DNA of 64,000 bases from Lytechinus variegatus (Eukaryota): NCBI RefSeq assembly GCF_018143015.1, contig NC_054741.1, positions 72,164,687-72,228,686 on the forward strand, given 5' to 3'. The position numbers were made by a program, and so were the translations under genes. Position 1 is the first letter of the stretch. Every line of letters begins with the position of its first letter. Below are positions 19,535 to 48,475 of the stretch, piece after piece. The notes below the pieces were generated by a model, which was given only the letters and a program-made list of their open reading frames with translations, did no database searches and had not been told where the DNA came from.

Positions 19535-19851
19535 CTGACGACAGAGGAATAGAAGAGAGTTAGAGAGAGAAAGACACAAACAGGGGAGACGAAGACAATC
19601 CTTTGTTTTGAGCTGACTTTCGATAACCACACATGCTTGAAAGTTGATGAATCAGTCCTTGCTATCATTCTTATGATGCGATCAGAACCAGATTTCAACT
19701 GAACATTAATCTTATACAGGATGCAAATCACAACCCAAATGATTGGATCGCAAATTAATGGTCAAGCAAGATCATTATTCCGATGAAAAGCAGCAATATC
19801 TTCGCTTTGGTTTGTAAAATAAAATGCAATTTCAAATTAAGCTTATACATA

Positions 19852-20052
19852 CTTTGCAAGATAGACTGCAAATACAGCATCCTGAACCAGGCCCTGCTTT
19901 ACAATGTTGTCAAACACAGGAAGTTTACTGATCCTGGTAATGGTTGGGTAACCCAGTCCTAGAATTCCATCAAACTTGGCCGCTATAAAGGTTAAACCTG
20001 GTTCAGCAGTTGCCTCTCCAAAACTCTGGCTCTTTGCCTTCAGACCACCCAG
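19852..20052 (-). CDS. ctsd: Cathepsin D-like exon 5 ([66 protein letters not shown])
   Basis: Matches ORF 19843-20085 (-). Homologous to human CTSD [50 protein letters not shown]. Coordinates are good to within 1 bp. Confidence 0.9.
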
Positions 20053-21334
20053 CTGTAAGATGTAACACAAAGCATCAACATACATGATGCAGTTGTAAGT
20101 ATATTATAAACATTAGGTACAGTTTTGCTCAATGTTGGTAAACCCTACCTCAAAATACACTATAGACAACAACACTACAATGTTCTGTGAGCCCAGAGAA
20201 ACAAACTGTGTTGAATGTAATATTTTATCACCCGACTTCACAATGGAATATCTAAAACACAGCAGAATGTGAACATTTTAAATAAATTTTCTGGTGGAAT
20301 TCACTGACTTTTGAGCAACACTGCATATCGTATTTTTTGGAAAAGTCATCTCCATTCATTTTAATGCTAAATACATTAAAGTTTGGATGATTAGAAAAAA
20401 AAGAAGCATAAGTTCAATATATAAGCATTCTAAAGTTACCCTGGCCAGGTTTTACAAGTAGGATCATGCAGAGACCATTGTTCTTAAAGAAAAACAAAAC
20501 CAAATACCACATTATATCATTTATAACATGATACAGGATAATTAAAGTAAATCCATCCACTTATACCCCAATGCAATTTCCTGATATAGAGAACCACCTC
20601 TTCAAATTGGGTTTCTTCAGGTTCAAAGTCTTAGGATGGAGGTCACCATGTTCGCGGGGTTAATTCAAAATTGTGACATCAGCGACAAACTAAATCTCTA
20701 AGCAGATATATAAATGTTTGCCTATTATAGATACTAATTTACAAATAATAAATCAAATACACACATAAAGCTCATAAATATATTATTCAGAATTCGTTTG
20801 ATGAAAAAATATTTTTAAAATTCAATTTTACACCCATACCTACAATTTCCAAATTGGCAAGTTATAGCTAATTAGCAAGTTTGAAAAAAGTAGACAATGG
20901 TGAAAAATTACTGATCATATCGTGTTTTGAAACTATAGTACAAAAAATATTTGGAACAATATTTTTATGTGTTTTATTTGTATATATGATTAATTATTGG
21001 TAAATAGAATCAATAACAGTAAATGTATAAGGGATGTAGCTCGTTGCTGACATCATAATTCCTGGAAATAAACTTGGTCTGTAGTTTTCTGATACTCAAT
21101 TATGCTCAAAGACCCTATCAAAGAAAAATTCAAACATTGCATGTCCTTTTTCAATTTCCTCAACTGTCATCCTCCCCTTTAACTTGTCCGCCTTCATTTC
21201 GCAATCTAGGCCTACTCATCTTCTTCTTCCTTTGTTAGCTCCACTTTCTTTTCCTCCCCTTCTTTTGCTTGACATCCTCTTCCACCCCCTTCTATCCCTC
21301 ATCATCAAGTTCATTACCATCAAATATAACTCAC

Positions 21335-21453
21335 CTGTATTGTATCCTCACTGACAAATCCAGAGCAAGCACCCGATCCATACTGTAGAGACCATTTTGT
21401 TCCATTAGCAACATAAGTTGATGATTTGGAGCTGTCATACTTGTGATGAAAGC
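21335..21453 (-). CDS. ctsd: Cathepsin D-like exon 4 ([40 protein letters not shown])
   Basis: Between acceptor acttacag| and donor |gtgagt. It carries the conserved NGT glycosylation site and the YGSGS-like flap motif. Homologous to human [37 protein letters not shown]. Confidence 0.88.
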
Positions 21454-21529
21454 CTGTAAGTTAGGAAAGAGTAAATCATATTGTTTTTTCTTTTAAAACC
21501 TGTATGTGTGCATGAATGCGCACATCAGT

Positions 21530-21720
21530 GGCAATACGCAAGGGGGGGGGGTTACAGGTGTTCACCCCCCTTGTTATTTTTTTTACTACCCAACCCTCCC
21601 CCTAAAATAATATTGATATATTTTTCTGCTTGCTTGTCAATTTTTTTGGGGTACAAAATGACTTGAAAATATGGGTGAGGACCCTTTTTTTTTTTTTGGG
21701 GGGGGGGGGGTGTCAACATT
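21530..21720. repeat. Poly-G/poly-C-containing short element in a cathepsin D intron
   Basis: The sequence ggggggggg..cacccccc...ccctccccc...ttttttttttttggggggggggggg resembles other G-run blocks at 45725-46030, 47555, 48505-49210 and 33290-33350. Confidence 0.5.
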
Positions 21721-21991
21721 TCATTCAGTTTAAAAAATCCTGTGTATGCACATATCTATACAACATGTGTGTATACAGTACAAGTCATAGAACTACGTGT
21801 CTAAGTACTGGATAATTGAGTGCTAAATGACTGCATACCAGTACTGATTTTTTTTAAAGAAACTTTTCATCTTAAAAACTCAGAAAAAAAAATGAATGAG
21901 AAAAATCTGACATCTTGCTAGAAAAAAAATTATTAATCAGAATCTGGATTGAAATTGAAGGAATATCATCACTGACAATGCTTCAACCCTA

Positions 21992-22180
<189 letters not shown>

Positions 22181-23110
22181 CTACAAAATGAAAAAATAAA
22201 ATCAAAATAAATAGAAGATAGTTAGCCATCGCACCATCTCATGCAGATTGGTGGAAAGAAAAGTTAAAAAACATCTATAAACAGACAGAATGCAGATGTG
22301 CCTAAACATCCATACAATGTCACCACTCCTTGGGGGACAAGAGCCCTCCTAATCTCTACGTCAGAGATGCTGGAACAGACAGGTTTTGAGAACTATTACC
22401 AAAAACTTATGAAATCGAACACAAAAATATGTTAAAGCTAAATTACAGTAGATGCAGTAAAACATTGATTTTGTGAGAAAGTCTGTAAAACCAAGGTTAA
22501 GTATTACTATATCATCGTCGATCTAGATCTGGTACAGTTACATAAACTGCACTTTGTGAAATCATAAAATCTAAGCTGAAAAACAATCACACTGAAGATC
22601 GCCAACACAGATAGGCACACGTGGGACAGTGTATATTATATTGCTGGAATAAAGACCTGACGGAAGTGCCCGAATCCGCGCTTATTTTGCTAATTTATCA
22701 GCAATTCCACCATTTCTTCCAGAATCCTTCAGCACATATTTTTTTATTCATATAAACAGACACTTGGGTGGTCATTAGTTGGATTCTGTAAAAAGTCATT
22801 TTGAGATCGTTACCACAACTGGAAGTTATCTTTAAATGCAAGTTGACATTTACACATGTATATACTTACAAAATAAGACAAGACCATACTCATCAGGAGC
22901 ATAGTAAAAATCTGAATCTTCCATCAAATTTCAATGCACAAAACTGTCATACAGTATTATTGGAATGTACATGTGACAAGTAATTTTACTGTTTTGATAG
23001 AAAATAAAAAGTTTGCTGTTTCTTGCCTCTTCTTTAGTAAAAAAAATATAAAAGAAAAAACTTTGAATGTCTCTTTCTAGAAAAATATGAGGTATTGTTC
23101 CTGCGCTTAC

Positions 23111-23264
23111 ATCAAGATAGTCACTCATGTTTACTGGCCATGGTGTGCCAAGTTTGTTGGTGTTCATCATGTCGTACTTGTTGGAAAGTTGAGCCAAATC
23201 TTTAAAGGGTAGTCCTGTGTTGGCCATTTGATGACGTACAGTTTCCATCTTCTTCAGTGGAACC
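23111..23264 (-). CDS. ctsd: Cathepsin D-like exon 2, propeptide (VPLKKMETVRHQMANTGLPFKDLAQLSNKYDMMNTNKLGTPWPVNMSDYLD)
   Basis: Matches ORF 22931-23248 (-). It lies between acceptor tttctcag| and donor |gtaagc, and joins exon 1 in frame (AG+G). Confidence 0.85.
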
Positions 23265-23589
23265 CTGAGAAATAAATAAAGATTACAATTTGTATTGATG
23301 TTTACCAGTCATAAAAATCATGATAAATATAGGCCAATGCAAACATTAAAACAAACATTACGCAACGCACGTGTCTGTAACGTTGGCGAAGAACAATAGG
23401 AAACAAGATGGCAGCGTAAACATCGGGCAAGTCTCTTCAGTCTTTTCATAATATTTTTCTAATTTTTTGATGAAGTCTTGTTTAAAAATAAAATTGATGG
23501 AGCAGAAATGTCGGAAATGAAGTTGTATCCCATGTACATGATTTAGGGCTAGATCTTTTAGAAGGAAAGTAGAAATCTTGTGTGGTATT

Positions 23590-28835: not shown

Positions 28836-29700
28836 AATAAAACTACATAAATTGCTTTATGTGCTTAAGCGGAATTTAAAAAATCAGCATGCGCTTGCTC
28901 TTCATGAATTCTTTTAAAAATATTCCTTAAAATGACCATTAATGACCCAAGGTATATACTAATGATGGTAATCATCAAAATATATTGCATATAACGTGTA
29001 AGAATGTAAATGCATGTGAATATGTAACGTATTTGTTTTTGTTTTTTGTATGTGTATTTGATAATATGGCTCACATGAAGAATTTGTACGTTATAGCCAT
29101 TTTTCTTTCATACATATGCGGATACCTGAAGAAGACTCAAATGCCGAAAGCTTATAAAAATTTGAAGAAACCCAGGCCAGTCTGTCATGCCTCCAGATTT
29201 CTTGCTTTATTAGCATCCTTTCATTATGCGTCACAAAAGCACCCACGCAATGTTCAGGTCTTTCCTCTTCACTTTTGTGTAACATAATATATTATGAAAA
29301 TAGGGTAAGAGAATAATGGAAGGGGTAGCTTAAATAAAAGTTCATCAGAGCTATTATCCCGTCGAAAGCATTTGTGAGGTAGAAAAATGTCTCATCTAGA
29401 AGGATAGCTCAGGGGAACTTTGATTAAAGCCCACGACTACCCGTATTCTATAATAATTACTGCATTTGTTTCATAACATATTTGAATAAAAAGAGTTTAC
29501 AAAGATGTTGTACATGTACAAATTCCAACATTTTTTTAACGCAAAGAGGGGGGGGGGGGTCATAAATTATCACTGCAGGCATTTTCAGATGATGAAGAAA
29601 ACATCTGGTTTTAAGGACGTTTCACTGTCAAAGTAAAATCCATGTCATTTTCACCAAATTTTACACACAGTTACTTTAGCACCTAAATATTCCAAATATA

Positions 29701-30684
29701 CAGTGCGTATCAAAAAAGTTTACACTTAGAAAATATCCTGTAAAATTATATATTTGTAATATCCTGACGATTTTTCGACATTTTAGCATTGGTACAGATC
29801 CATTTAAGCAAATGACGATATAACTGTCGAAAAATATTTCCGCTTGAGCGAGCACCACTTACTTTTGAAAAGTTGGTGAAAAATGATTTGCGCAGAAATT
29901 TGAAATAGTTATGCGAATAAAAGTAGACCTTAATCATGAAGAACACGTGGAAATTAGTTAGTAAAATTGATTTGAAGATATCTTTACCTTTTTAAACTTA
30001 TTTCCTTGCCCAAACACTTCGAAGAGTGCATTGCGCCCCACCCCACTCCCCCACACACCGAGTCCATCGTGACGATATTTGCTTTACACTGAGCTGTGAT
30101 TTACATGAAATGGCTTAGGCTTGATTTTCATTTTGTTAATCATTGCCAAGCTTGGGAAAAGTGTGGAGAAACAAGTATTAAATGAAAAATCAAATGTAAA
30201 CCAACTTTAAATGATAAAAACTTAGTGAAAAATGCTGGAGATGTCTGATATAAACTTTTGTTCAGATTCAGTTATGTCCTCAGATCCAGCTGGCACAAAA
30301 AGGGTAAAGGTTGTGCTTACTAAGTGTTGAAATTTCAAATTTGGGCGGCAAAATTGTTACAAAATGCTTGAATGTATCCGTTTTATGTCAATTGGCTAAA
30401 AGTGCTAGGGAAATTTATGAGAAATGCTTCGCAGGGTAAGTTTGATTTCGCCCTTTCCCCTTGACACAGCGTGAAAACAAGCATTTCTGCGCAAACAGAT
30501 TTCTGCCAGCTTTACAAAAATGGACAGTGCTCACTCAAGTGTAACATTCTGTCAAAATTTTTACTGTCATTGGATAGATGAGACCCAAACCCATAATTAT
30601 ATGTGAAAAAATTACCCACATGTTGTATATTTGTTAATTCCCATGGCTTTTTCAAAGTGTAAACTTTTTTTTGATACGCACTGT
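29701..30684 (+). mobile_element. Non-autonomous Tc1/mariner-like DNA transposon, copy 1 (about 984 bp), with TA target-site duplication
   Basis: About 28-bp terminal inverted repeat: CAGTGCGTATCAAAAAAGTTTACACTT at the 5' end and AAGTGTAAACTTTTTTTTGATACGCACTG at the 3' end. It is flanked by TA on both sides. It has no long ORF and is about 90 percent identical over its full length to 43513-44501. Confidence 0.85.
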
Positions 30685-32189
30685 AGAATAAAAAACTACA
30701 TGGGTTCATGTGTTTGATTTTTTGCTGTTGAGCTTTGAACTTTACCCATTTGAAAGGTCTCGAGGAATAGCAATGAAAATAATTTTGCAGTTTTAGACCC
30801 CACGAGGTCGCAACGTAGAGGTTAAAACTGTATTACTCAGTCCAAATCTATCTAAATTTCACAAAATTTTACACTAGAGTTCAGGATTATATACTAAGAT
30901 AAAGAATCCACTCGTATTGCCATTTGTTTGCTCTTTCAAGAGTAGCAGTACCTTCAAATTGGAAAATGAGGTGTGCCAGACCATAAACACGTCTGAAAAA
31001 TTTGAAAACAAATTTAAGAAGTGCAATAAACACTGCGCCTTGTCCAAACCCATGTCATTTTCACCAAAGTTTGCTTGGTTATATAGAAAGGTATACCAAT
31101 GATGTTTGAATATTAAAAATTAGGGGTTTGTGTACTCGTTTTCAAACTATCAGCAAATTTCATGGAGCAAATGTACTTTGAAAACACACACACACACGCA
31201 AAACGCGTCAAAAGGCTTATCTACACAAAGAAAATTTCTATAGGCCTACCAATATCCCAGCGAATAAAAATCGAGGTCATAGCATCTCATATCCCAACAC
31301 TGCAGAGTGAAGTATTCTGAAGAGGTAGATGCGTTTAAAAAGTTGGTACATAGATTATTTACCGCTTATGGCTTCGTAAAATAACGCATCAAGACAATTT
31401 GCTAACCTGCCGCGCATACATTCGTAATTCCGAAGCTTCGTAATTCCGAAGCTTCGGTTATTCCGAAGGTTCGTATTTCCGAAGGTTCGTAAATCCGAAG
31501 GTTCGTAATTCCGAAGGTTCGTCAATCCGAAAACGAAATAAGGTTCGTAATTCCGAAGGTTCGTTAATCCGAAAACGAAATAAGGTTCGTTAATCCGAAA
31601 ACGAAATAAGGTTCGTAATTCCGAAGGTTCGTTAATCCGAAAACGAAATAAGGTTCGTTAATCCGAAAATTAAATAAGGTTCGTATTTCCGAAAATGAAA
31701 ATTATTCATTTTGGTAACAAAAATGATGTTGTCATTACAAGATTACACGATATTATGCAATGATAGTAATAACGATCGATGATACATGTGTGTGTTGTGG
31801 CCAAAAGCATGTATTTCATTAAGAATATAGATCAAGCATAGGCTAATTTCGATTTTATCTGAGCAATTGCTGCCTAAGCAAAATGGTTTAAAGATGCAGG
31901 GGGTCAAGTGTGTTGGTCGCGTGCGAGTAACCTCTAGATAATAGGATTTGTATTGGAGGGGATGTCATTTTTAATAACAGCTTCTGCTGGTAATAAAATA
32001 AAAAATAATACTAATAATGATCCTTGTGAGATGTTGAAAGCGCGAATTGCAAGCTCAAACTATAGACATTTCATGTAACAAGACGTGAAGTGAGCATTCG
32101 GAGCATTTTTTGTAATCGTGAGAAAGATGTGTATCTTTCTAAAGATGCGAGGGCAAGCTGTAATATATTTATATACTGACCTGGGGCCC

Positions 32190-32345
32190 GTTGCATAAAA
32201 CTTTTTACCTGAGAAAACTCAGGTTGTTTTTACAGGAGTTTTTGCCCTGTGCTAAAGTCATGCAGTGGCGGAAATCAGACTAACCTTAGTTTTCAGTTTT
32301 TACCAGAGTTTTCTCAGGTAAAAAGTTTTATGCAACAGGCTTCAG
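32190..32345. mobile_element. Palindromic MITE (gcccgttgcataaaactttttacctgagaaaactc ... gagttttctcaggtaaaaagttttatgcaacaggc) inside the foldback element
   Basis: Perfect terminal inverted repeats of about 35 bp. A second copy of the family lies at 49862-50030. Confidence 0.85.
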
Positions 32346-32629
32346 AAAGTAATCTTTTAAGGACTGCATTTAGTGACTCATGAATAGAATATATATCTCA
32401 CGAACTAAATAATGAGAGCGCGAACCGGAAGCTTAAAATTTGTGATATTCCAACCTGAAAACTGGACATTCTAAGCATTCTTGTAAAAATGATAATAATA
32501 ATGGCTGGGAGAACAGTTTTCAGAACTGAAGTGGCTTCCCTGGGTAAATGGTATCTATATCAATATTATCATTATTATCAGTCTAGGAATACATGAAATT
32601 TCCAAAAGTTTGAGCACGTGATTCGCTCG

Positions 32630-34040
32630 CAACATCTCACAAGGATGCCCTTTTAACAGTAATTGCTCAAAAAGGCGAATTTTACATCTTCAGATTTGAT
32701 TTTTTTCCCCCAAACCGCTTGCTCGCTATGCTCGCAGAAATGAAACGTAAATATATAACTTTAGTGATCACTTAAAAAAATTTGCTCAATTTAATTACTA
32801 CAAAACACACAACCTGTTTACACAGGTGATAATCTCATGGTGAAAATATCCGTTTGCACCAAATTGCCCCTATTGGCCCCTTTTTTGCTTTGCCCCCCCC
32901 CAAAAAAAAAATAGGAAAATACGTTCCGCCGCCATTGGTTGAAACACGCATCGTCTTCATAGCTAACTGCAAAAAGTTCTTAAAATGTCCCCTTTAGATT
33001 AGGTCTGAGGTTATATATTTTAAATTTCTGTTCGCGCTTCTTGCTCGCAGTTATTATCTAAATTTAGTTACATAGGCATCTCGTTTTAAAGATCACAAAC
33101 ATATTGCCCATCATATTAAAAAAATATATAGCTCGCATTATTTAAAAAGGGCTTATCATGTTATTACATATTTACTTTACTTTATAAGTATAAAGCTAAT
33201 TATTGACTGTTAGGACTACCCTTTGAAAGAAACAAACAAAAATCAACTTTAAGCTGCCGATCGAGGAAAATATGGTTGAAAAAAAATTGCCCCCCCCCTT
33301 ATTTGACGAAAGCTGGATCCGCCGGGAGGGAGGCAGGGGGCACTTGCACCCCAAAAATGAAATAAAAAACAGGGAAATTAATATTTTCCAAAATGGGAAA
33401 GTTCCTTTTTCAAAAATAAATATGCCGTTTTTCATGTTTTTTTCGAAATGAAATACTCTTTTTAAAGTATACAAGTTAAGTTAAGTTTTCAGGCTGGAAT
33501 ATTGCAAATTTTCAGCTTGCGCTTCGCATTTTCATTCGATTGGTGAAATTGCACCCTAAAGAGGTCACTAAATGCTTTCTTTAACAGGTTCCTTTTCTGG
33601 TCAGTATGTTTAAGCTCGCGTTTTGCGCTCGTGTTAATTCTTTAGTTAGATGCACATCTTTTTAATGACAGCAGAAATCTGCTCGGATTTTTAAAAACTT
33701 ATTTTAATTTTTTATTGAAATACCCTAAAGTTTAAGCTTGTGATTCACGCTCGCAACACCTCGCAATATTGCCATTTTAAGAATAATTGACCCCCAAAAC
33801 GTTTTACAACTTCACCTTTGAATTTGTTTTACCAAGCCGCTCGCTCATTATACTCTCTCCCGAAAAATAAAGCCTAAATATACATTTTGCCATAATAAGA
33901 AGTCACTTCAACATAGTTTTTCTCTACTTAATCGATATCAAACACACAATGACTTCAAGCAGATGATAATCTTAAGGTAAAAATATCACCAAAGTGCCCA
34001 TTTTGACGTATGAGTTTCATTTTTTGGCTTTACCTCCCAA
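32630..34040. repeat. Internal direct duplication (about 32630-32930 versus about 33750-34040) plus multiple copies of the gctcgc..cgctcgc repeat inside the foldback core
   Basis: Shared strings include ctcgcaa..tt..gcc..tttaa, ccgcttgctcgctatgctc versus ccgctcgctcattatactc, and caaaacacacaacctgtttacacaggtgataatctcatggtgaaaatatcc versus caaacacacaatgacttcaagcagatgataatcttaaggtaaaaatatcacc. Confidence 0.6.
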
Positions 34041-36959
34041 CGAAAATTCGTTCGGCCGCCCTTGCCTTCCCATCCTCATAATAATTGAACGGCAACAGTG
34101 TCCCCCGCCCCACTCCCCTTGCCTCTGCTTTCCCGCTTTTCATTTTTCGTATTAACGAACCTTATTTTGTTTTCGGATTAACGAACCTTATTTCGTTTTC
34201 GGATTAACGAACCTTCGGAAAAACGAGCCTTATTTCGTTTTCGGATCAACGAACCTTTTTTCGCTTTCGGATTAACGAACCTTCGGAAAAACGAACCTTA
34301 TTTCGTTTTCGGATCAACGAACCTTATTTCGCTTTCGGATTAACGAACCTTCGGAAAAACGAACCTTATTTCGTTTTCGGATCAACGAACCTTCGGAACA
34401 ACGAACCTTATTTCGTTTTCGGATAAACGAACCTTCGGAACAACGAACCTTATTTCGTTTTCGGATTATCGAACCTTCGGAATAACGAACCGTCGGAATT
34501 ACGCCACAAATGTTCGGATTAACGAACCCTTTTTCGTTTTCGGATTAACGAACATCGAGGTATAGGCAATTTACGTGTTTCGGAATTACGAACCTTCGGA
34601 ATAAAGAACCTTCGGAATTACGAAGCTTCGGAATTACGAAGTGTAGAACAACTAAAGACCTTCTTGAGAAAGGAAATGATTTACGGTTATAAAGTGACCC
34701 CTGAGTTCTTACTTATTCGTTAAAGACGCTTCCGTCAGACTATACGACCATCTTACGATTTCTGTTGTCGCAAGATTGTCGTATTTGCCAGGAGTGGGGC
34801 AGCCGGACTAGACCCAATAATTCTGATTGTACAAAAGCAATACAGCCCTAAAAATGTATTGTGTGTAATCCGGCTGGATCTGCAACTCATGACACTCTGA
34901 ATTCATTCGTAAGAAGATTTTAGGATTTTTTGGGGTACATTTTGTCGAGTTGTAAAAAAAGACGCTGCCATATCCTGTCAAATATCCTCTTACTGTTGAA
35001 TTGTTGATTTTTTCAAAATGGATGTAGTGCCAAGGAGACTGCGAGTCCCTTGTGAATGCCTTACAACGTTAAGAGTCGCTCGTAAAAGCGCCGTAAGAAT
35101 TTCCGTTCTAAAGGCGATCGTTAAAACGTCGTCAGAGCGTTTCACGAACAGCTTAACGTGTTCTTACAATCATCGTATGAAATCGAAGCGTTTAGAATTG
35201 TCTCTCGACCTAATCTAACGTGGTTTTCACGATTTTCTTTCAATGTTCGTGCGACCGCCTTACGAAGAGACGATGTGGCACGACATTAAAAAAAGTCTTG
35301 GACAAAGCCATCGACTCGACCAAGCTGCGAACTTACGAATCGTCTACGAACGCTTATTTCGTACGACCATCTTGTGAAGATGAAATGGCCAAAAAAAAAA
35401 AATATCGTTCTTATTGCAGCTTTAAACAACTTCGTGCCAATGACCATGACAGCATTAAGTAATATCCTTGAACTTCGTTTTGACATTAAACACCCCAAAA
35501 CTATCCACCGTATGTACATCTTCTACAAATCACACTTATTATCTTTTAAGTTACCAGTTATAATTCTGTTCCAAATACAAATGTTAAATCCATTAGTACT
35601 TATTTTACAGTAAACTTAATTTTTGTAATCAAGTTTCATTATATATATATAATTGTATATGAATCACACTTTAATATTTACTGTCTGTGTCATAAGTCCA
35701 TGAACGAAAAAAATTATTAATATAGCCTTGGTAAGGAGAAAGTGAAAGTTACGTGAAACAAAATTGTAATTTTATCCTGCTCGCAAGAAGACGAATGAAT
35801 TTCTATATAGCATGGGTTAAGATTTAGTAACGTAAACAATTCAAATTTAAATTGTCAGACAGAATGAAAGAGCATATCATAAAAGGAATGTTTTTTGTGG
35901 ATAAAATTCAACACTTATTGGATAAATATACACCCCCCCCCCACACACACACATATATATATTCCAAAAGGAGCTAAATCCACTTTTGGTATTTTTCTGT
36001 AAATGGAGGTTTTTTAATTCACAACTTTCCCTTAACCACTGCTGTTTTATTCTTAGATTGATTAAATCATAATTTCAAAAATCTAGCAAAGATGAATTTT
36101 TAAAGAATTTGTGAAATTTCATTTTTCATGAATTCAACTCCTTTTGGAACAAAACCCTAGTAAAATGTTATTTTTTGCCAATTTAGACATGTTTGATATT
36201 GGAAATTGAACGCAAAACACATAAATATGGCTGGCAGAGGACATTTCACATCTTTTCTGATGTTTATACATTGATCATAACAAAAAGAAAAAAAATATTT
36301 TGTCATCTTTTCTATAGACGGTGACTTTTCGATATCTAATTCCAAAAAGAGCTAAATCCAAAAATATCCATAAAAACTGTGATATTCTGTTATTTTCAGC
36401 AAGATTTGCACTAATGGTGTGAACTTGTATCCACAACATGTACCTAAAAATTGAATGCATACCTTTATTTAAAATAGGAACAATAACCAATTTCAAATAA
36501 TCGCAAAGTGGATTAAGCTACTTTTGGAACAATACTGAAATTTGCAATCAATTTTTACCAACCTTACCATCTTTTTTTCAAACGCGATATGTTGCATTTG
36601 ATTCCCACGTCTAAGATACAATTATTCTTATTAGAATATCCCGGGGGGGGGCACTTACATTGACGAGTGGAGGATGTCTTTTTCAAGAAAGGACACGTTA
36701 CGTAACGTAATAAAGGTGTCAAAAACACCGAAATAATGGAAAAAGGGTGTCTACTTTTGCTAGGAAAGCTACGTGTTTAGGGTCGAATTTGAGATGGTGT
36801 AAAAAAATAAGACGAAAATATTTTATAAAGGATGTACTTTTTGCCCCAAGAATCAACCGTAAGTGTTTAGGGTACGATTTGCGCGAGATGTTGGAGGTGA
36901 GGCTGTACTAAACCCAATGGTGTAAATAATTATTCAACCTTCATGAAAACTTAAGATAT

Positions 36960-37544: not shown

Positions 37545-38175
37545 CGCAGAAATGCTTGTTTTCACACTGTGTCAAGGGGAAAAATTTGAAATAAAATGGA
37601 TACATGCAAGCATTTTGTAATAATTTGCTACCAAAATTAAAATTTTGATACTTAGTAGGCACAACCTTTACCCTTTTTGTGCCAGCTGGATCTGAGGACA
37701 TACCTAAATATAAACAAAAGCTTATATCAGACATCTCCAATATTTTTTTACTGTTTTTATTACTTAAAGTGGGTTTACATTTCATTTTTCATTTAATACT
37801 TGTTTCTCCACACTTTTCCCAAGCTTGAAAATGATTAACAAAAAGAAAATCAAGCCTAAGCCATTTCATAAAATTCACAGCTCAGTGTAAAGCAAATATC
37901 GTCACGATGGCCTCGGTGTGTGGGGGAGTGGGGTGGGGCGCAATGACACTCTTCGAAGTGATTTGGGCAAGGAAATCAGTTGAAAAAGGAAAAAGATATA
38001 TTCAAATCAATTTTACTAGCTAAATTTCATGTGTACTTCATGATTAAGGTCTAATTTTATTCGCATAACTATTTCATAGTTCTGCGCAAATAATTTTTCA
38101 CTAACTTTTCCAAAGTAAGTGGTGCTCACTCAAGCGGAAATATTTTTCGACAGTTATATCGTCATTTGCTTGTCA
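37545..38175 (-). mobile_element. Truncated inverted copy of the Tc1-like element, corresponding to about 29810-30490 of copy 1
   Basis: Reverse complement of the internal portion (ccccttgacacagtgtgaaaacaagcatttctgcg ... gcaaatgacgatataactgtcg). It lacks both terminal inverted repeats. Confidence 0.8.
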
Positions 38176-42425: not shown

Positions 42426-42589
42426 ACCAACGTGCGAGTATCCACACCCACACAATACCATGACTGCTCTAGATAGTTTTTCTTTATTCTTTATAATTAT
42501 AGACCTTTACAAGCCTACTTCAAATCCCATTTTCGTAATTCAAGTCATAATTATGCCTTTTATTATCTTTTCACAAAAAAAAATGACAG

Positions 42590-42778
42590 TGAAGTCTATA
42601 CGGCTGGTTGGTGGATTGACGCCCTGGGAGGGCCGAGTAGAAATACTTCATGGTGGTGAATGGGGAACAGTATGTGATGATTTATGGGATCTTGCCGATG
42701 CACATATTGTCTGTTTGAGCATGGGTTACGCATATTCTGTGGCCGCTTTAAGTGGAGCTCCGTTTGGTGAAGGCACAG
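42590..42778 (+). CDS. SRCR-LRR gene: SRCR domain A, N-terminal half exon (SIRLVGGLTPWEGRVEILHGGEWGTVCDDLWDLADAHIVCLSMGYAYSVAALSGAPFGEGTG)
   Basis: Matches the ORF 42460-42798 frame after acceptor tgacag| at 42587-42589. It carries the canonical SRCR start (RLVGG...GRVE..H.G.WGTVCDD.W....A.VVC..LG). Donor |gtaaga follows at 42779, leaving phase 1. Confidence 0.85.
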
Positions 42779-42789
42779 GTAAGATGAAA

Positions 42790-43470
42790 GGATTCTAGGA
42801 CATCTACCCCCTGGACATCTACCCCCCGGACATCCACCCCCTTAGGACAAGTACCCCCTAGGACAAGTACCCTCTAGGACATCTACCCCCCGGACATCTA
42901 CCCCCGGACATCCACCCCATTAGGACAAGTACCCCCTAGGACAAGTACCCTCTAGGACATCTACCCCCCGGACATCCACCCCCCGGACATCTACCCCCTG
43001 ACATTTTTTGTCAAATTGCTCGTTCGTTATGATCACTCACAGACGAGCAAAAATATATTTTATCAATTCAAAATCAATTTAAAGATGAGGGGGTAGATGT
43101 CCGGTGGGTGGATGTCCGGAGGGTGGGTGTCCGGGGGGTGGATGTCCGGGGGTAGATGTCCTGGGGGTGGATGTCCGGGGGGTAGATGTCCTGGGGGTGG
43201 ATGTCCTGGGGTGGATGTCCGGGGGGTAGATTTCCGGGGGTGGATATCCGGGGGGGGGGGGGGTAGATGTCCGGGGGTGGATGTCCGGAGGGTGGATGTC
43301 CGGGGGGTGGGTGGATGTCCGGGGGGTAGATTTCCGGGGGGTGGATGTCCGGGGGTAGATGTCCTAGAGGGTACTTTTCCTAGGGGGTACTTGTCCTAAG
43401 GGGGTGGATGTCCGGGGGGTGGAAGTCCGGGGGGTGGATGTCCGGGGGGTAGATGTCCAGGGGGTACATG
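42790..43470. mobile_element. Small foldback-type element in the intron splitting SRCR domain A: inverted arrays of a ggacatc(t/c)acccc(c) tandem unit around a 75-bp spacer
   Basis: 42790-43010 carries direct tandem repeats (ggacatctaccccctggacatctaccccccggacatccaccccc, interleaved with taggacaagtacccc). 43085-43470 is the reverse-complement array (gggggtagatgtccggtgggtggatgtccgg...ggggtacttgtcctaa). The spacer itself contains ttgctcgttcg...cagacgagcaa. Confidence 0.8.
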
Positions 43471-43512
43471 TCCGGATACTAATTAAAGGAATGCACGTAG
43501 AGGGTAGTTATA

Positions 43513-44501
43513 CAGTGCGTATCAAAAAGAAGTTTACACTTTGAAAAAATCCTGTAAAATTATACATTTGTAATATCCTGAAGATTTTTCCACATTTTAA
43601 CATTGGTACAGATCCATTTAAGCAAATGACGATATAACTATCGAAAAATATTTCCGCTTGAGTGAGCACCACTTACTTTTGAAAAGTTAGTGAAAACGGA
43701 TTTGCGCAGAACTTTGAAATAGCTATGCGAATAAAAGTAAACCTTTATCATGAAGAACACGTAGAATTTAGCAAGTAAAATTGATTTGGAGATATCTTTG
43801 ACATCTTTTAAGTTGTTTCCTTGCCCAATACACATCAAAGAGTGCATTGCGCCCTTCCCCCACTCCTCCACACACCAAAGCCATCAAGGCGATATTTGAT
43901 TTACACTGAGCTGTGATTTACATAAAATGAATTAGGCTTGATTTTCATTTTGTTAATCATTGTCAAGATTGGGAAAAGTGTGGAGAAACAAGTATTAAAT
44001 GAAAAATTAAATGTCAACCCCTTTTTAAATAATAAAAACTTAGTAAAAAAGTGCAGGAGATGTCTGATGTAAATTTTTGTTCAGATTCAGTTATGTCCTC
44101 TGATCCAGCTGGCACAAAAAGGGTAAAAGTTGTGCTTACTAAGTGTTGAAATTTCAATTCGGGTGGCAAATTTGTTTAAAAATGCTTGAATGTATCTGTT
44201 TTATCTTAATTGACTTAAAGTGCAAGGGTAATGTAGGAAAAATGTATCGCAGGGTAAGTTTGATTTTGCCCTTTGCCCTTGACACTGCGTGAAAACGAGC
44301 ATTTCTGCGCAAACAGATTTCTGCGAGCTTTACAAAAATGGACAGTGCTCACTCAATTGTAACATTCTGTCAAAACTTTTACTTTCATTGGATAGATGAG
44401 ACCCGTACCCAAGATTATATGTGAAAAAATTACCCGCATGTTGTATATTTTTTAATTCCCAGAGCTTTTTCAAAGTGTAAACTTTTTTTTGATACGCACT
44501 G
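43513..44501 (+). mobile_element. Non-autonomous Tc1/mariner-like element, copy 2 (about 989 bp), nested in the SRCR-A intron, with TA target-site duplication
   Basis: Same CAGTGCGTATCAAAAAGAAGTTTACAC terminal inverted repeats and internal sequence as 29701-30684, flanked by ta...ta. Confidence 0.85.
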
Positions 44502-44914
44502 TATATAGGGTGCCATTTCGGAATATTATCCTTTTACTAAATTGTTTATGAAAGGTTAATCTTTTTTTAAGATACTCATCGCCTTTTTATGCTGTATCAA
44601 CATAATTCTAAAGATCTTCGTTTATGATATCTACATTCATTGTCGAACAAAATGATATTTAACATTTGTTTCTAGAAATAGTGATATGAACACTTCTTTG
44701 ATAAATCGTGTGTAAAATAAGACTTATTTTAAAACCACGACAGGTCATAGTCCTCCAATTATGCTAATGGATTTTGACCTTGATGCATGGCTTCTCAATC
44801 TTAATTCCTTTTTAAGGTACAATTTAAGATCAAGATCCTGTAGTGATTCTCAGTGAATGAAAGCGCTGCATGAACATCCATCACTCGTGATTGCCCTTGT
44901 GTCTCTGACCTTGA

Positions 44915-45112
<198 letters not shown>

Positions 45113-45724
45113 TAAATTTCTGGATGAAAAAAAATCGCCATTACCCCATTTTGTGCGAAGTTTAATGTAAATGCTGATTTTTGCTCGTAACTATGAAGCG
45201 GTCTTGTATAGTCCAAGTCAGTTCAACACAGGATCCGTCCCGGTAAAGTACGTACTTGGGGTTTGCATGAAAGAGACACAAACGAAATCAGAAACAGTCC
45301 ACAATCTTAGATTTTTAAAGAACCTTTTGGTACAGCATTTGAAACGTTTTGGTTCCAAACAGTATTCTATAACCGTTCGTTATACAAGGAATCATCTACG
45401 GTTCTTTATACAAGCTATGGTTTTTTGTTGCTGTGAATTCATAATCTAACAATGGATTGTTTCGTATTATAGGTTCATGTTTTGAAGAACCATAAACGAA
45501 ATGTTCTAATCAGCACATTGCTTTCTAAGAATGCAGGACTGTTGTAAAGACGACAGTAACACCAGGACGTTCTGACCAGACAAGACTTAGGTCTAAGGTA
45601 TTGTGTGTCACGGCTATCAGCTTTGTCCAATGAGAAGGCTCGGGCACCACTGGGAGATGAACCTTTCATGAAATAATTTATTTCGTATAAGTCTTATAAG
45701 TGTAAAAACTTTTATAAGTAACGG

Positions 45725-46035
45725 AAGAACGCAGGGGGGGGGGGGAATCTCTCCCAAAAGGTAGGGGGGACAAGAGGCTGGAAAATTCGACAAGCAAAAA
45801 AAAAAAAAAAAAAAAGGTATCACCCCAAATTTAAGGTCACTTCGACGAAAATAAATTTGACAGGCAGAAAAAAAGGGTCATCATCCCCAAAATAAGGTCA
45901 CCTCGTCCTAAAATACATGTTATATATAAAATTTGAATGATGTATTTCTTATAGTAGGGGGACATTTGATATTGTGTCCCCCCTACTATATTGAGTGGGG
46001 GGGGGAGGGGGCACGTCCCTCCTGGGATTTCCGTC
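45725..46035. repeat. G-run/C-run-rich repeat block with an internal palindrome (tagtagggggacat...tgtcccccctacta)
   Basis: gggggggggggg, a20 tract, repeated aaggtcac(t/c)tcg units and ggggggggagggggc. It is intronic. Confidence 0.5.
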
Positions 46036-46368
46036 CATGGAAGAACGTGATTATCAAACGAGAATATGGGGAGGATTAGACGATGTAAGAAAGGAATTCA
46101 AGAAGAAACGGTTTTTGGTAAGATGTGCTCAATAAGCACTGACAGTTTTGACGAAATGTGCTAAGAGGTCTAATTAACAAGCCCTAAAAGTGTGAAAGAG
46201 TTTAAAGTACAGTTAATAATTATCAAAGAAATCACTTTACATAGATAGGCATTTTCAGGTTAAGCTTATGAAACATGGGAAGAAACATCATCGCACAACG
46301 CGAAGTTATGAAGCTCCAAAGTTAGAGTGACCCTTTCCCCTTTCTCTTGTGACATGTACGCACTGTAG

Positions 46369-46701
46369 TTCGTCTCGTCGATGGGAGATATCCTTGGGAG
46401 GGCAAGGTGGAAGTATTCAAAGATGGTTCCTGGGGAACCGTGTGCGACAATAACTGGGACATGGATGATGCCAATGTGGTCTGCAGAAGTCTAGGACTAG
46501 GTGAGGCTGTTGAGGTATCCACCTTCAAGGATTGCTGTTTCCAGGACTACCAGGATGTTGACGAGGGATTGAATGACATTTTCTTGGACGAAGTAGAGTG
46601 TCTTGGAAACGAATCTATCCTGCTTGATTGTCCTCATTCTGGTTTTGGAGTTTACAACTGCAACCACACACAGGATGCAACAGTAAAATGCGAAACTGGG
46701 A
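46369..46701 (+). CDS. SRCR-LRR gene: SRCR domain B, single exon (VRLVDGRYPWEGKVEVFKDGSWGTVCDNNWDMDDANVVCRSLGLGEA...NCNHTQDATVKCETG), 8 cysteines
   Basis: Matches ORF 46407-46724. The 333-nt symmetric phase-1 exon lies between acceptor cactgtag| and donor |gtaagc. It has the full SRCR consensus, including HC.G.ES.L..C...G.G...C.H..DA.V.C. Confidence 0.9.
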
Positions 46702-47024
46702 GTAAGCATATTTTTTTAAGTTAAGTTAATGACTAGTTATCAATGCAACATCGACCTTTCTTATTTGGAATATACATGTATACCCTTTATACTTCTTTGT
46801 CCTGTATGGCTCAACCCATGTTCTTAATGTCAAACTTAATTTAGTCGTTGCCAAAATGTGTTATTCATCGGTAATTACTCTTACCATAAGCCTGTCCTTT
46901 ATATGGTGTTCCACACGGCAGTGTCTTGGCACACTCTTGCTAATCTTTTTAAAATATAAATGACTTTAACTGGTTGGTTATATAGGATCCTGCGTTTAAT
47001 CCGTAATTATCAATGATGTTACAG

Positions 47025-47333
47025 TTCGCCTAGTTGGTGGAAGCAACAACCTTGAGGGTCGGGTTGAAGTGTTCTACGATGGTTCCTGGGGTACGGTTTG
47101 CAGTCACCACTTCGATATCATCGATGCTCACGTAGTCTGCAAGAGTCTCGGTCACACCTTCGCACTGAGTGCGTCATCGTACGCAGACTTCGGGCAGGGA
47201 AAAGGCGATATCGTCTTGGATGGTCTCCACTGCACCGGTGGCGAATCGAATATTTACGAATGCGAAAGTGATGATACGAATTTCTTCAAATGCTTTCATC
47301 AAATGGACGCGGGAGTCACTTGTTCACCAGAAG
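47025..47333 (+). CDS. SRCR-LRR gene: SRCR domain C, single exon (IRLVGGSNNLEGRVEVFYDGSWGTVCSHHFDIIDAHVVCKSLGH...DAGVTCSPE), 6 cysteines
   Basis: Matches ORF 47069-47365. The 309-nt symmetric phase-1 exon lies between acceptor gttacag| and donor |gtaaaa. Confidence 0.9.
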
Positions 47334-47981
47334 GTAAAAATACTGAATTGGTGTTTGAAAGCTAATTACTGAACCTGACATGTACTTTTTCAAAAATATT
47401 GTCCATCCTTAGATATGTGTTATTTGGCTCTATTGAACATGATGAATATTAATATCAAGATTCTCAATATCAATCGTTTTCACCATTATTAAAAGTCAAT
47501 CGCATAGAATACATTACTCTGCTAGCTAATTATGTAAAGAGGTGGGTTTTTTTTTTGGGGGGGGAGATGGCACATACTCCCGCAACATTTGTTTAAACGG
47601 GGAATCCACACATTATAAGCCAGAACTAAATCTTGACCCGAATCCGTATCATTGCCATCATCCTAATCCTCACTCCATTATCAACCAAAATCCCATCACA
47701 TCAATATTTCAAACTTACAAACCTTACCATAGTCGTCAGAGAAATTAGAATAAGAGCAATTGTTACAAGAGTAGGCCTATATGTCATGTTACAGAAGGGG
47801 CTACTCATAGATTTAGAGTTGTTTCCAGTAAAAAAAAATGCAAAAATTGGAAGAGTAAGTTTGAATGTTAAAGATAATAATAACAAACCGACATCCAACA
47901 TAGAGAGTGGCCCTGGTCAAATTGGGAAGAGCAGAAGAGAATATAATTTTAGATTATTATAGCTTTATATTGCCAACACAG

Positions 47982-48287
47982 ATTACGCCGTCTTCCTCGT
48001 CAACGGGAGCACGTATCTAGAGGGTCGGGTGACGGTTGCTTATCAAGGCTACCTAGGTACTGTCTGCGACACCTCTTGGGATCTAAAGAATGCTAATGTC
48101 ATCTGTAAAAGTCTAGGTTTCGGACACGCCGTGAGCATCAATGACTTTGGTCCAGGGATCGGAGACATCATCCTCGACGACATTCATTGTGTTGGCAACG
48201 AGAGTAGCATTTTCAATTGTTCTCATGGCGGGCTTGGGGTTCATAACTGTAATCATTCCCAAGACGCTGGAGTAACATGTTTCGGAG
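47982..48287 (+). CDS. SRCR-LRR gene: SRCR domain D, single exon (DYAVFLVNGSTYLEGRVTVAYQGYLGTVCDTSWDLKNANVICKSLGFGHA...DAGVTCFG), 6 cysteines
   Basis: Matches ORF 48029-48382. The 306-nt symmetric phase-1 exon lies between acceptor aacacag| and donor |gtaaca. Confidence 0.9.
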
Positions 48288-48475
48288 GTAACATGTCGAT
48301 TCGCTATTTATACCGAATAATTCACAGAATAAAACACTTGACAATAAGATTACATTTCACATTGCGATATCAGAATGAATAAAATATTTCATTTGCGATG
48401 GCAGAATCAAGATAGACAGAATTTTGTTCCTTCATTAAAAAGTGTAAATGTTTCATAACTAGAATGTCTCTTAAG

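What the first reader, a model, noticed from the sequence alone, without database searches (positions are those of the whole stretch)
31424..34643. 3.2-kb foldback (FB/TU-like) transposon with asymmetric tandem-repeat arms
The left arm (about 275 bp) and right arm (about 500 bp) are inverted arrays of 16-26-bp units (ggttcgtaattccgaa / aatccgaaaacgaaataaggttcgtt). Their extreme termini are inverted copies of (ac)ttcgtaattccgaagcttcg. The 2.4-kb core holds a palindromic MITE, an internal roughly 300-bp direct duplication and many copies of the gctcgc..cgctcgc short repeat, but no transposase-length ORF. This structure matches foldback elements (Drosophila FB, sea urchin TU). Such elements can form large cruciforms and promote rearrangements. 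The degenerate ttcgta/ttacgaa-rich sequence that continues to about 35500 may be an older, eroded arm extension.
Basis: partly seen in the sequence, partly recalled or inferred. Interest (0 to 1): 0.55.

Follow-up and report, generated by a model that had tools for sequence, protein, structure and literature searches.

The report
Decayed foldback transposon with nested repeats
This is a real but ordinary foldback-type "jumping gene" relic in an animal genome: two inverted arrays of a 16-base unit, split by 2.4 kb of other repeats, whose relatives elsewhere are small hairpin elements that insert with 9-base target duplications.

Summary
Window 31414-34648 has two inverted arrays of 16- and 26-bp units (14 units left, 22 right; arms up to 196 nt at 91% complementary). 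The units occur nowhere else in the 64 kb: 39 matches against 0.38 expected.

The foldback-transposon reading is supported by related copies I recovered from metagenome and ENA assemblies. These are compact 0.2-0.6 kb foldbacks at unrelated loci. They share the window's arm units and a unique sequence that interrupts the right arm. They start exactly at GGGTGYGGYTYG at one end and GGTTACAGC at the other. Three carry significant 9-bp target-site duplications (9/9, 9/9, 8/9).

The closest described architecture is Tm1, a Mutator/Foldback family. No transposase was found, so the superfamily is inferred only.

The window copy looks dead:
- Its tips are non-canonical.
- It has no target-site duplication.
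- The original hairpin turn survives at 31692-31712.
- The 2.4-kb "core" is other repeats inserted beside that turn.

The proposed "eroded arm" at 34.6-35.5 kb is not supported. At least 35045-35459 is the end of a different, probably PIF/Harbinger-like, element.

A second, unrelated foldback lies at 42798-43473. Overall this is a new member of a known kind, of modest interest.

The parts
31414..31424 (+). Left tip, GCATACATTCG. It aligns with the family's end-A terminal motif GGTTACAGCTCG but is degenerate (8 of 12 positions, one deletion).
   Evidence: Alignment A2; table of ends.
31414..31703 (+). Left arm: 14 tandem units. The outer part is 16-bp units (GGTTCGTAATTCCGAA); the inner part mixes 16-bp and 26-bp units (GGTTCGTTAATCCGAAAACGAAATAA), giving 42- and 68-bp higher-order periods.
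31692..31712 (+). Surviving hairpin turn of the original compact foldback: AAAATGAA / aatta / TTCATTTT. It is followed, to about 31728, by a degenerate first unit of the right arm.
   Evidence: DNA fold shows an 8-bp stem plus CC/GG. The same kind of turn is seen in compact relatives L010, L018 and L019. The remnant unit was read directly from the sequence.
31729..34136 (.). 2.4-kb middle: a non-coding patchwork of other dispersed repeats, interpreted as insertion(s) next to the turn.
   Evidence: Every complete related copy held has only a short loop, about 50-110 bp or less. The core matches other repeat copies in the window. No ORF inside the element exceeds 94 aa.
32179..32340 (.). Palindromic MITE nested in the middle (39-nt terminal repeats, 95% alike).
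   Evidence: A second copy lies at 49874-50030 (77% identical) and a homolog lies in L017 at 5559-5704.
32594..32875 (+). First copy of the roughly 300-bp direct duplication; it carries gctcgc motifs.
   Evidence: 68% identical to 33716-34005.
33716..34005 (+). Second copy of the roughly 300-bp direct duplication.
34137..34648 (-). Right arm: 22 units, the reverse complement of the left-arm units. Two short unique stretches (34503-34512 and 34554-34579) interrupt it; these are specific to the family's end-B arm.
   Evidence: alignment A1.
34637..34648 (-). Right tip. Its reverse complement is TTCTACACTTCG, which matches neither canonical terminal motif well. The outermost 32 bp are identical to the left tip.

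Best explanation
The feature at window 31414-34648 is one decayed copy of a non-autonomous foldback-type DNA transposon.

ITS ARMS. They are inverted arrays of a 16-bp, nearly palindromic unit (core TTCGnAATTnCGAA) and a 26-bp derivative of it.

ITS FAMILY. Intact members, seen here in assemblies from other organisms, are compact hairpin elements of 0.2-0.6 kb. They are bounded by two slightly different 12-bp terminal motifs, GGGTGYGGYTYG and GGTTACAGCTYG, and by 9-bp target-site duplications. That means they move by cut-and-paste, using a transposase supplied in trans that makes 9-bp staggered cuts.

INFERRED STEPS.
- The transposase is of the Mutator/Phantom (MULE) kind, as in Tm1 and Drosophila FB.
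- The repeated units serve as multiple transposase-binding sites.
- Unit number drifts through slippage or unequal exchange, which would explain the unequal arms.

THIS COPY'S HISTORY. A compact foldback inserted here. About 2.4 kb of unrelated repeats (a MITE, gctcgc-type repeats, an old 300-bp duplication) later accumulated just past the hairpin turn, pushing the arms apart. The tips were homogenised or rearranged. As a result the canonical terminal motifs and the target-site duplication are gone and the copy can probably no longer move. It keeps strong snap-back potential.

Shown: structure, family membership, ends and target-site duplications of relatives, the nested repeats. Inferred: transposase type, binding-site role, order of events, any effect on genome stability.
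For: - Inverted tandem arrays far beyond chance.
- Snap-back energy of -310 against -75 kcal/mol for shuffles.
- A metagenome scan found 16 contigs. Nine of them (L001-L004, L010, L011, L013-L015) carry arrays of the same unit class, and four of those (L002, L004, L010, L015) are compact foldbacks of the window's own family.
- A spurious ORF translated from the arm repeats led to five more copies: L017-L020 from ERZ26222911 and L021 from ERZ27246526.
- The window's arms align with these copies unit by unit. This includes the odd 17-bp third unit at the left end and the unique end-B stretch ACACGYAAATT..CTATACCT..CCGAACATTTGT in the right arm.
- Flanks of different loci are unrelated, and similarity begins exactly at the terminal motifs.
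- 9-bp target-site duplications: L018 GGCACGTAG 9/9 (1 of 2000 shuffles reach this), L014 CGCTGTATG 9/9 (0 of 2000), L019 8/9 (9 of 2000).
- Literature: MULE duplications are 8-11 bp (PMC6446971). Tm1 has asymmetric 7-bp end motifs inside 9-bp duplications, 13-15-bp tandem repeats in its terminal repeats, MITE-like forms and a Phantom-type transposase (PMC3169594).
- Tandem repeats in long terminal repeats bind transposase in Galileo (PMC3688188).
- The hairpin turn is retained at 31692-31712, and the core is made of repeats found elsewhere.
Against: - No transposase was found in the window or on any contig carrying an array. The superfamily therefore rests on duplication length and architecture alone, and foldback architecture has arisen in several superfamilies (PMC3169594, PMC4079207).
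- The window copy has no target-site duplication (best 5/9, reached by 1482 of 2000 shuffles), and its tips differ from the family motifs.
- L002 and L017 also lack duplications. L013, L015 and L020 reach only 6/9, which is not significant.
- No second copy lies in the 64-kb window, and the host genome was not available. Mobility in this host is therefore not shown.
- The insertion history of the core is inferred. No clean boundaries or target-site duplication of the inserted DNA could be defined.
Confidence: 0.8

Rival explanations
1. It is a foldback-shaped element of a different superfamily (P/Galileo-like, hAT, Merlin or another), not Mutator/Phantom. The foldback shape would then be convergent.
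For: No transposase was recovered. The literature states that foldback-like elements are not necessarily related; Galileo, for example, belongs to the P superfamily (PMC3169594, PMC3573991, PMC4079207). The other foldback in this window has an 8-bp rather than a 9-bp duplication.
Against: Three related copies have 9-bp duplications. From established knowledge, P/Galileo gives 7-8 bp, hAT 8 bp, PIF 3 bp and Tc1 2 bp. The asymmetric end motifs plus short tandem units mirror Tm1, whose autonomous copy encodes a Phantom-type MULE transposase (PMC3169594).
Confidence: 0.2
2. The feature is not one element. It is two separate arm arrays brought into inverted orientation by rearrangement, for example ectopic recombination or an inversion between two foldback copies. 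The 2.4 kb between them would then be ordinary host DNA.
For: There is no target-site duplication and the tips are non-canonical. The arms are unequal (14 versus 22 units). In Galileo, copies with non-matching flanks are read as chimeric recombination products (PMC3573991). The right arm has an end-B interior, yet its outermost 32 bp are identical to the left tip.
Against: The hairpin turn and the start of a right-arm unit sit directly at the inner end of the left arm. The inner end of the right arm resumes with the matching TTCATTTT motif, as expected if one compact foldback was split. The end-A and end-B arm types pair in the same way as in intact relatives. Unequal arms are normal in this family; L017 and L018 have 16 versus 7 and 12 versus 7 units.
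Confidence: 0.12
3. It is a composite foldback transposon whose 2.4-kb middle is carried cargo, moved together with the arms in the way of FB-NOF, Pack-MULEs or modular TU elements.
For: The middle segments of foldback families are known to vary and to carry other dispersed repeats (Tetris, PMC4079207). TU and FB-NOF are cited from my own knowledge.
Against: None of the 10 or so related copies has a middle longer than about 110 bp. The middle is a mix of decayed copies of unrelated repeats (68-80% identical to their relatives). The element lacks intact ends and a target-site duplication.
Confidence: 0.08
4. It is a non-mobile local palindrome: a minisatellite array that underwent inverted duplication, with no transposon involved.
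For: This copy has no target-site duplication, and there is a single copy in the window.
Against: The same unit arrays, with the same internal landmarks, occur at unrelated loci with sharp, conserved ends and 9-bp duplications.
Confidence: 0.03

Closest known systems
Tm1, a Mutator/Foldback family of root-knot nematodes (PMC3169594)
   Same: - Terminal repeats are built from variable numbers of a short tandem unit (13-15 bp in Tm1; 16 and 26 bp here).
- The two ends carry short, non-identical terminal motifs just inside the duplication.
- Target-site duplications are 9 bp.
- Most copies are non-coding and MITE-like, the two arms of one element are about 93% identical, and other elements can be nested inside.
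   Different: There is no sequence similarity in units or end motifs. Tm1's autonomous copy, with its Phantom-type transposase, is known; none was found for this family. The host is a different animal group. The window copy itself lacks a duplication and canonical ends.
Drosophila Foldback (FB) elements (structure cited from my own knowledge: Truett et al. 1981, Potter 1982; grouping with Mutator cited in PMC3169594 and PMC4079207)
   Same: - Long, unequal inverted arms made wholly of tandem subrepeats.
- The repeat period grows from the tip inwards (10, then 20, then 31 bp in FB; 16, then 42, then 68 bp here).
- 9-bp duplications, a mostly non-coding middle, and strong snap-back potential.
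   Different: The unit sequence is different. FB4-type coding copies exist for FB but none is seen here. Similarity to FB sequence was not tested because no FB sequence is available in these tools.
Sea urchin TU elements (from my own knowledge only; the original papers are not held)
   Same: Foldback transposons of a marine invertebrate with modular structure: inverted arms with a tandem-repeat outer domain, and middle segments made of other dispersed repeats. The best named relative of the window's SRCR exon comes from a sea urchin.
   Different: As I recall, TU outer domains use 15-bp repeats and give 8-bp duplications. That resembles the second foldback at 42798-43473 (15-bp units, 8-bp duplication matching 7/8) more than this element. 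Host identity is unresolved, and no TU sequence was available for comparison.
Tetris and Galileo, foldback-like elements of Drosophila (PMC4079207, PMC3573991, PMC3688188)
   Same: - Long, internally repetitive terminal repeats.
- Many two-arm-only copies and structural dynamism.
- Chimeric copies that lack matching duplications.
- Tandem repeats acting as secondary transposase-binding sites (Galileo).
   Different: Galileo is a P-superfamily element with 7-bp duplications. Tetris has 220-bp repeats and 8-10-bp duplications. Neither shares sequence with this element.

Membership tests
Foldback-type transposons (structural class) | Long terminal inverted repeats made of tandem subrepeats, often unequal in length | tested here: met
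   14 versus 22 units of 16 and 26 bp, with arms 91-93% complementary.
Foldback-type transposons (structural class) | Variable middle domain with no required coding capacity | tested here: met
   No ORF inside the element exceeds 94 aa. Relatives have loops from about 0 to 110 bp.
Foldback-type transposons (structural class) | Target-site duplication flanking the copy | tested here: not met
   Window copy: best 9-mer match is 5/9, reached by 1482 of 2000 shuffles. The feature is met in relatives L018 (9/9), L014 (9/9) and L019 (8/9).
Foldback-type transposons (structural class) | Multiple copies at unrelated loci with the same ends | tested here: inconclusive
   Met in other organisms' assemblies: end B at six loci and end A at six loci, with unrelated flanks. 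There is no second copy in the window, the host genome is unavailable, and the window copy's own tips are non-canonical.
Mutator/Foldback superfamily (MULE, Phantom, FB, Tm1) | Target-site duplication of 8-11 bp, typically 9 bp | tested here: met
   Family level only: 9/9, 9/9 and 8/9 in three copies. Reference range from PMC6446971 and PMC3169594.
Mutator/Foldback superfamily (MULE, Phantom, FB, Tm1) | An autonomous member encodes a MULE-type DDE transposase | not testable with these tools
   None was found in the window or on about 90 kb of related contigs. The host genomes cannot be searched. Absence on these short contigs is not informative.
Tm1-like architecture | Short, non-identical terminal motifs at the two ends, inside the duplication, followed by tandem units | tested here: met
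   In relatives: GGGTGYGGYTYG versus GGTTACAGCTYG. In the window copy both tips are degenerate (GCATACA-TTCG and TTCTACACTTCG).
Sea urchin TU elements | Sequence similarity to TU inverted repeats; 15-bp outer-domain repeats; 8-bp duplication (features recalled from memory) | not testable with these tools
   The TU papers and sequences are not held. The unit here is 16/26 bp and relatives give 9-bp duplications, which does not fit what I recall.
P-superfamily foldback-like elements (Galileo) | 7-bp target-site duplication and a THAP transposase | tested here: not met
   Duplications are 9 bp. No transposase was available to test.
PIF/Harbinger (considered for the 34.6-35.5 kb 'eroded arm' only) | Terminal repeat shared with copies elsewhere, TWA/TTAA-type flank, and a DDE_Tnp_4 transposase in a full-length copy | tested here: inconclusive
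   Window 35059-35396 is 68% identical to L019 10056-10411. The terminus GCCTTGGTCACAAAT... is shared by L019 and by a palindromic mini-element in L018. A degenerate form sits at window 35441-35459. A DDE_Tnp_4 ORF (E = 6e-31) lies 6 kb further along L019, but it was not shown to belong to the same element.

The most novel reading that the evidence does not exclude
The 16-bp near-palindromic unit (TTCGGAnTnACGAACC) is the shared building block of a widely distributed group of foldback elements in marine or host-associated animals. At least four diverged subfamilies turned up in unrelated samples: the window/L015/ERZ type, the L001/L014 type, the L003/L011 type and the L013 type. Non-coding transposon sequence is rarely conserved this far. 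If the hosts really are distantly related, this would point either to a conserved transposase recognition module that holds the unit in place, or to horizontal transfer. Separately, the window copy has homogenised tips, an end-B interior and no target-site duplication. It could therefore be the scar of a rearrangement mediated by the foldback itself.
Probability: 0.2. Interest if true: 0.5.

Novelty: new member of a known kind. Interest (0 to 1): 0.3.

Why it matters
Foldback elements are under-annotated, because most copies encode nothing and assemblers and repeat-finders handle hairpins badly.

This case yields a usable family definition: the unit sequence, two terminal motifs and a 9-bp duplication. 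A host genome could be screened with it. The case also shows a practical trick. In-frame higher-order repeats (42 bp, or 14 codons) produce spurious ORFs, and these let protein databases be used to find non-coding repeat families.

For the locus itself the consequences are modest. A 3.2-kb sequence prone to forming a cruciform lies between a cathepsin-D-like gene and an SRCR-repeat gene. A second foldback sits about 15-20 bp inside an SRCR intron. Both could promote rearrangement or cause assembly errors.

Tried and rejected
- HOST IDENTITY. Two protein searches, with an SRCR exon and a cathepsin-D exon, gave at best 62% and 76% identity to unnamed ORFs. The only informative name was a Lytechinus SRCR protein at 52%. 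The host remains an unidentified animal.
- RFAM. Nothing in the window reached the gathering threshold.
- OTHER COLLECTIONS. Scans of the bacterial/archaeal genome and viral collections for the two-unit pattern found nothing. This is as expected for a eukaryotic repeat.
- LITERATURE BY SEQUENCE. A full-text search for six forms of the unit sequence found no paper.
- TU AND RELATED PAPERS. The TU, FARE and Casals 2005 papers are not held, and an author search was swamped by unrelated work.
- TA (Tc1/mariner-like) DUPLICATION. I considered reading the window ends as TA|CA...TG|TA. I rejected it because the bases outside it (GGT/GGG) are conserved among independent loci and so belong to the element.
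- 8-BP (hAT-like) DUPLICATION. I considered this after first seeing L014, but the repeat extends to 9 bp and L018 is an unambiguous 9.
- HELITRON/HELENTRON. I considered this because of the missing duplication and T-rich flanks. I rejected it once the 9-bp duplications appeared.
- THE 900-BP REPEAT. I checked whether the copies at 29.7, 37.6 and 43.5 kb form a larger composite around the foldback. Their orientation and distance differ between the two foldbacks, so I treat the proximity as coincidence.
- LINKED TRANSPOSASE. I looked for one on all related contigs. Only an unrelated Harbinger DDE_Tnp_4 ORF and a LINE-type endonuclease turned up.

Full report
CONTEXT. The window is animal DNA: about 35% GC, microsatellites and spliced exons. 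It holds myosin exons at 5-10 kb, a cathepsin-D-like aspartic protease on the minus strand at 16-23 kb, and scavenger-receptor cysteine-rich (SRCR) exons at 42-48 kb (PF00530 and PF00026 relatives). The host species could not be identified. The best named SRCR relative is from the sea urchin Lytechinus pictus at 52% identity. Rfam found nothing.

Tandem Repeats Finder reports arrays with periods of 16, 26, 42 and 68 bp at 31421-31700 and 34144-34640. The arrays are inverted relative to each other. Arms 31498-31693 and 34214-34409 are 196 nt long and 91% complementary, and the tips are 89% complementary over 63 nt.

Parsing shows 14 units on the left and 22 on the right, arranged with the same polarity. 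Each arm starts with two GCTTCGTAATTCCGAA units at the outer tip, continues with plain 16-bp units, then mixes 16- and 26-bp units, and ends in AAAATGAAAA at the inner end. The unit matches 39 times, all within the two arrays, against 0.38 expected. The 20-nt terminal sequence is exact at both tips. The unit is itself nearly palindromic (TTCGnAATTnCGAA), which is why some positions match on both strands. Joined together, the arms fold as single-stranded DNA at -310 kcal/mol, against -75 +/- 6 for shuffles.

- a palindromic MITE at 32179-32340;
- a direct duplication of about 300 bp (32594-32875 versus 33716-34005), though only 68% identical;
- enrichment of gctcgc (8 observed, 0.44 expected);
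- no ORF inside the element longer than 94 aa stop to stop; a 100-aa spurious frame from the arm repeats runs out past the left tip.

RELATED COPIES ELSEWHERE. A pattern spanning two adjacent units (GGTTCGTNNNTCCGAAGGTTCGT) found nothing in bacterial/archaeal genomes or viral contigs. It found 16 metagenome contigs. Nine of these (L001-L004, L010, L011, L013-L015) carry real arrays. L005, L006, L008, L009 and L012 are copies of one unrelated contig with a single chance match.

L002, L010 and L015 are compact foldbacks: forward units, a turn of 0-110 bp, then reverse units. L004 is the same locus as L015, 96% identical over 1.5 kb.

To get more copies I used the fact that the 42-bp higher-order repeat is 14 codons long, so arm arrays give spurious open reading frames. 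Searching the protein collection with one such frame (window 34317-34544, minus strand) returned six predicted "proteins". Four lie on contigs of 7-19 kb from a single ENA assembly, ERZ26222911 (L017-L020). One lies in ERZ27246526 (L021), and one is L004 again. All of them are compact foldbacks of the same family.

THE WINDOW ELEMENT BELONGS TO THIS FAMILY. Its left end aligns unit by unit with one end of these copies ("end A"), including an odd 17-bp third unit (alignment A2). Its right arm contains two short non-repeat stretches, 34503-34512 and 34554-34579. These are the landmarks of the other arm ("end B"...CCGAACACGCAAATTTCCTATACCTGGAGG...CCGAACATTTGTAGC...) (alignment A1).

Across independent loci the flanks are unrelated. 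Similarity starts exactly at GGGTG(C/T)GG(C/T)T(C/T)G for end B (L002, L015, L017, L018, L019, L021). For end A it starts at GGTTACAGC (L015/L004, L010, L002, L018, L020).

HOW THE FAMILY MOVES. I searched uniformly for 9-bp direct repeats at the motif-defined ends, with a shuffle control:
- L018: GGCACGTAG on both sides, 9/9 (1 of 2000 shuffles reach this).
- L014 (a diverged subfamily, 203 bp): CGCTGTATG, 9/9 (0 of 2000).
- L019: GATAGTGTG and GATAGTTTG, 8/9 (9 of 2000).
- L013, L015 and L020: 6/9, not significant.
- L002 and L017: none.

A 9-bp duplication is typical of Mutator-like elements, whose range is 8-11 bp (PMC6446971), and of the Mutator/Foldback family Tm1. In Tm1, asymmetric 7-bp terminal motifs lie just inside 9-bp duplications. 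They are followed by variable numbers of 13-15-bp tandem repeats. Most Tm1 copies are non-coding or MITE-like, and a rare copy encodes a Phantom-type transposase (PMC3169594). That architecture matches this family point for point.

From my own knowledge, Drosophila FB also gives 9-bp duplications, and its repeat period grows from the tip inwards. That parallels the 16, then 42, then 68 bp gradient here.

The idea that the repeated units are transposase-binding sites is an inference by analogy with Galileo, where tandem repeats in the long terminal repeats bind the THAP domain (PMC3688188). No transposase was found in the window or on any related contig. Because foldback architecture is polyphyletic (PMC3169594, PMC4079207), the superfamily assignment remains an inference, at roughly 50-60% confidence.

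WHAT IS PARTICULAR ABOUT THE WINDOW COPY.

1. It has a 2.4-kb middle, while every related complete copy has almost none. At the inner end of the left arm the sequence turns back on itself: AAAATGAA (31692-31699), aatta, TTCATTTT (31705-31712). A degenerate start of a right-arm unit follows. The right arm proper resumes at 34137 with the same TTCATTTT motif. So the original hairpin turn survives, and the 2.4 kb lies just beyond it.

The middle is a patchwork of other repeats. It holds a MITE with copies at 49874-50030 and next to the foldback in L017. It holds gctcgc-type repeats matching 28.7 and 48.7-49.0 kb, and an old duplication. I read it as later insertion(s), not as cargo. I could not define clean insertion boundaries, so this step is inferred.

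2. The tips are non-canonical: GCATACA-TTCG on the left, and TTCTACACTTCG as the reverse complement of the right end. The outermost 32 bp of the two arms are identical even though the right arm's interior is of end-B type.

3. There is no target-site duplication at any length from 7 to 10 bp.

In Galileo, copies with non-matching flanks are interpreted as products of ectopic recombination or conversion (PMC3573991). The same may have happened here. Alternatively the ends may simply have been damaged. Either way this copy is probably immobile.

THE "ERODED ARM EXTENSION" IS NOT SUPPORTED. Region 34649-35500 is CpG-rich (observed/expected about 1.5-1.8). It has no unit-level matches above shuffles and no BLAST similarity to the arms.

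Instead, 35059-35396 is 68% identical over 363 bp to L019 10056-10411. That L019 sequence begins with a terminus, GCCTTGGTCACAAATGCCCTTACGAAC. The same terminus forms the terminal repeats of a small palindromic element in L018 at 11772-11890. The window carries a degenerate version, reading CTTAATGCTGTCATGGTCA on the minus strand, at 35441-35459.

L019 also has a PIF/Harbinger DDE_Tnp_4 ORF 6 kb further along (E = 6e-31). So at least 35045-35459 is a one-ended fragment of a different terminal-repeat element, plausibly Harbinger-like.

One curiosity remains. The well-preserved L019 copy is packed with GTTCGT/ACGAAC, the core hexamer of the foldback unit: 9 in 356 bp against 0.75 expected, reached by 0 of 500 shuffles. 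The window copy has 3. Whether it means anything is unknown.

A SECOND FOLDBACK. At 42798-43473 lies a compact foldback of a different family. It has 15-bp units (GGACATCTACCCCC and its reverse complement), a loop of about 87 bp, and a fold energy of -244 against -115 kcal/mol (computed over 42798-43493). It is flanked by GGATTCTA and GGATACTA, a 7/8 match reached by 60 of 3000 shuffles. It sits about 15-20 bp downstream of the splice donor of an SRCR exon. From memory, 15-bp units and 8-bp duplications resemble sea urchin TU elements. I could not check this because the TU papers are not held.

VERDICT. The finding is a genuine foldback-type transposon relic. It can now be placed in a family with defined units, defined ends and a 9-bp duplication. 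It is a new member of a known kind rather than a new kind of element, and the copy in the window is degenerate. The unit sequences were not found in the searchable literature, but Repbase and Dfam could not be consulted. Interest is modest.

Noticed in passing
window 42798-43473 (flanking repeats 42790-42797 and 43474-43481): A second, unrelated compact foldback. Its arms are 15-bp GGACATCTACCCCC-type units with a 78-bp higher-order repeat, around a loop of about 87 bp. An 8-bp direct repeat, GGATTCTA / GGATACTA (7/8; 60 of 3000 shuffles reach this), flanks it. It lies about 15-20 bp into the intron after an SRCR exon. It may be TU-like, but that rests on memory only.
   Followed up: partly
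window 35045-35459; L019:10007-10411; L018:11772-11890: CpG-rich end fragment of a different terminal-repeat element, with terminus GCCTTGGTCACAAAT... and a TTAA/TWA-type flank. L018 holds a 118-bp palindromic mini-copy. L019 may hold a full-length copy with a DDE_Tnp_4 (PIF/Harbinger) ORF at 16594-17478. The L019 copy is strongly enriched in GTTCGT/ACGAAC, the core hexamer of the foldback unit, and this is unexplained.
   Followed up: partly
window 29699-30685 (+), 37613-38171 (-), 43508-44503 (+): A dispersed repeat of about 900 bp in three copies, 82-94% identical. Two inverted copies bracket the foldback region 7.3 kb apart, and the third starts about 35 bp after the second foldback. No consistent arrangement was seen, so this is probably coincidence.
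   Followed up: partly
window 3452-4041, 17709-18299, 51479-51991: Three further hairpin (MITE-like) palindromes, with arms of 155-215 nt that are 81-90% complementary and 27-203 nt apart.
   Followed up: no
window 32179-32340 and 49874-50030; L017:5559-5704: A MITE family with GGGGCC(C/T)(G/A)TTGCATAAAAC termini. It is present twice in the window and again directly beside the foldback in L017. So the window's host and the ERZ26222911 organism share at least three repeat families.
   Followed up: partly
L014:5366-5568 and L001:2600-2700: The loop of the 203-bp foldback in L014 holds telomere-like CCCTAA repeats, and L001 has similar degenerate repeats just upstream of its array. L014 comes from the same sample series as contigs L005-L012, which share a 99-100% identical GC-richer contig. 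I recall that accession series as host-associated metagenomes, but I could not check that here.
   Followed up: no
window 4974-9876 (+), 15929-23308 (-), 42460-48382 (+): Host genes: myosin head and IQ exons, a cathepsin-D-like aspartic protease, and at least four SRCR-domain exons. The foldback lies in the roughly 19-kb gap between the protease and SRCR genes.
   Followed up: partly
window 31501-32000 and 34001-35500: CpG observed/expected is 1.4-2.4 over the arms and the right flank, against about 0.3-1.1 over most of the 25-40 kb profiled. The CpG-rich units have not decayed to TpG, which suggests recent homogenisation or a lack of methylation.
   Followed up: no
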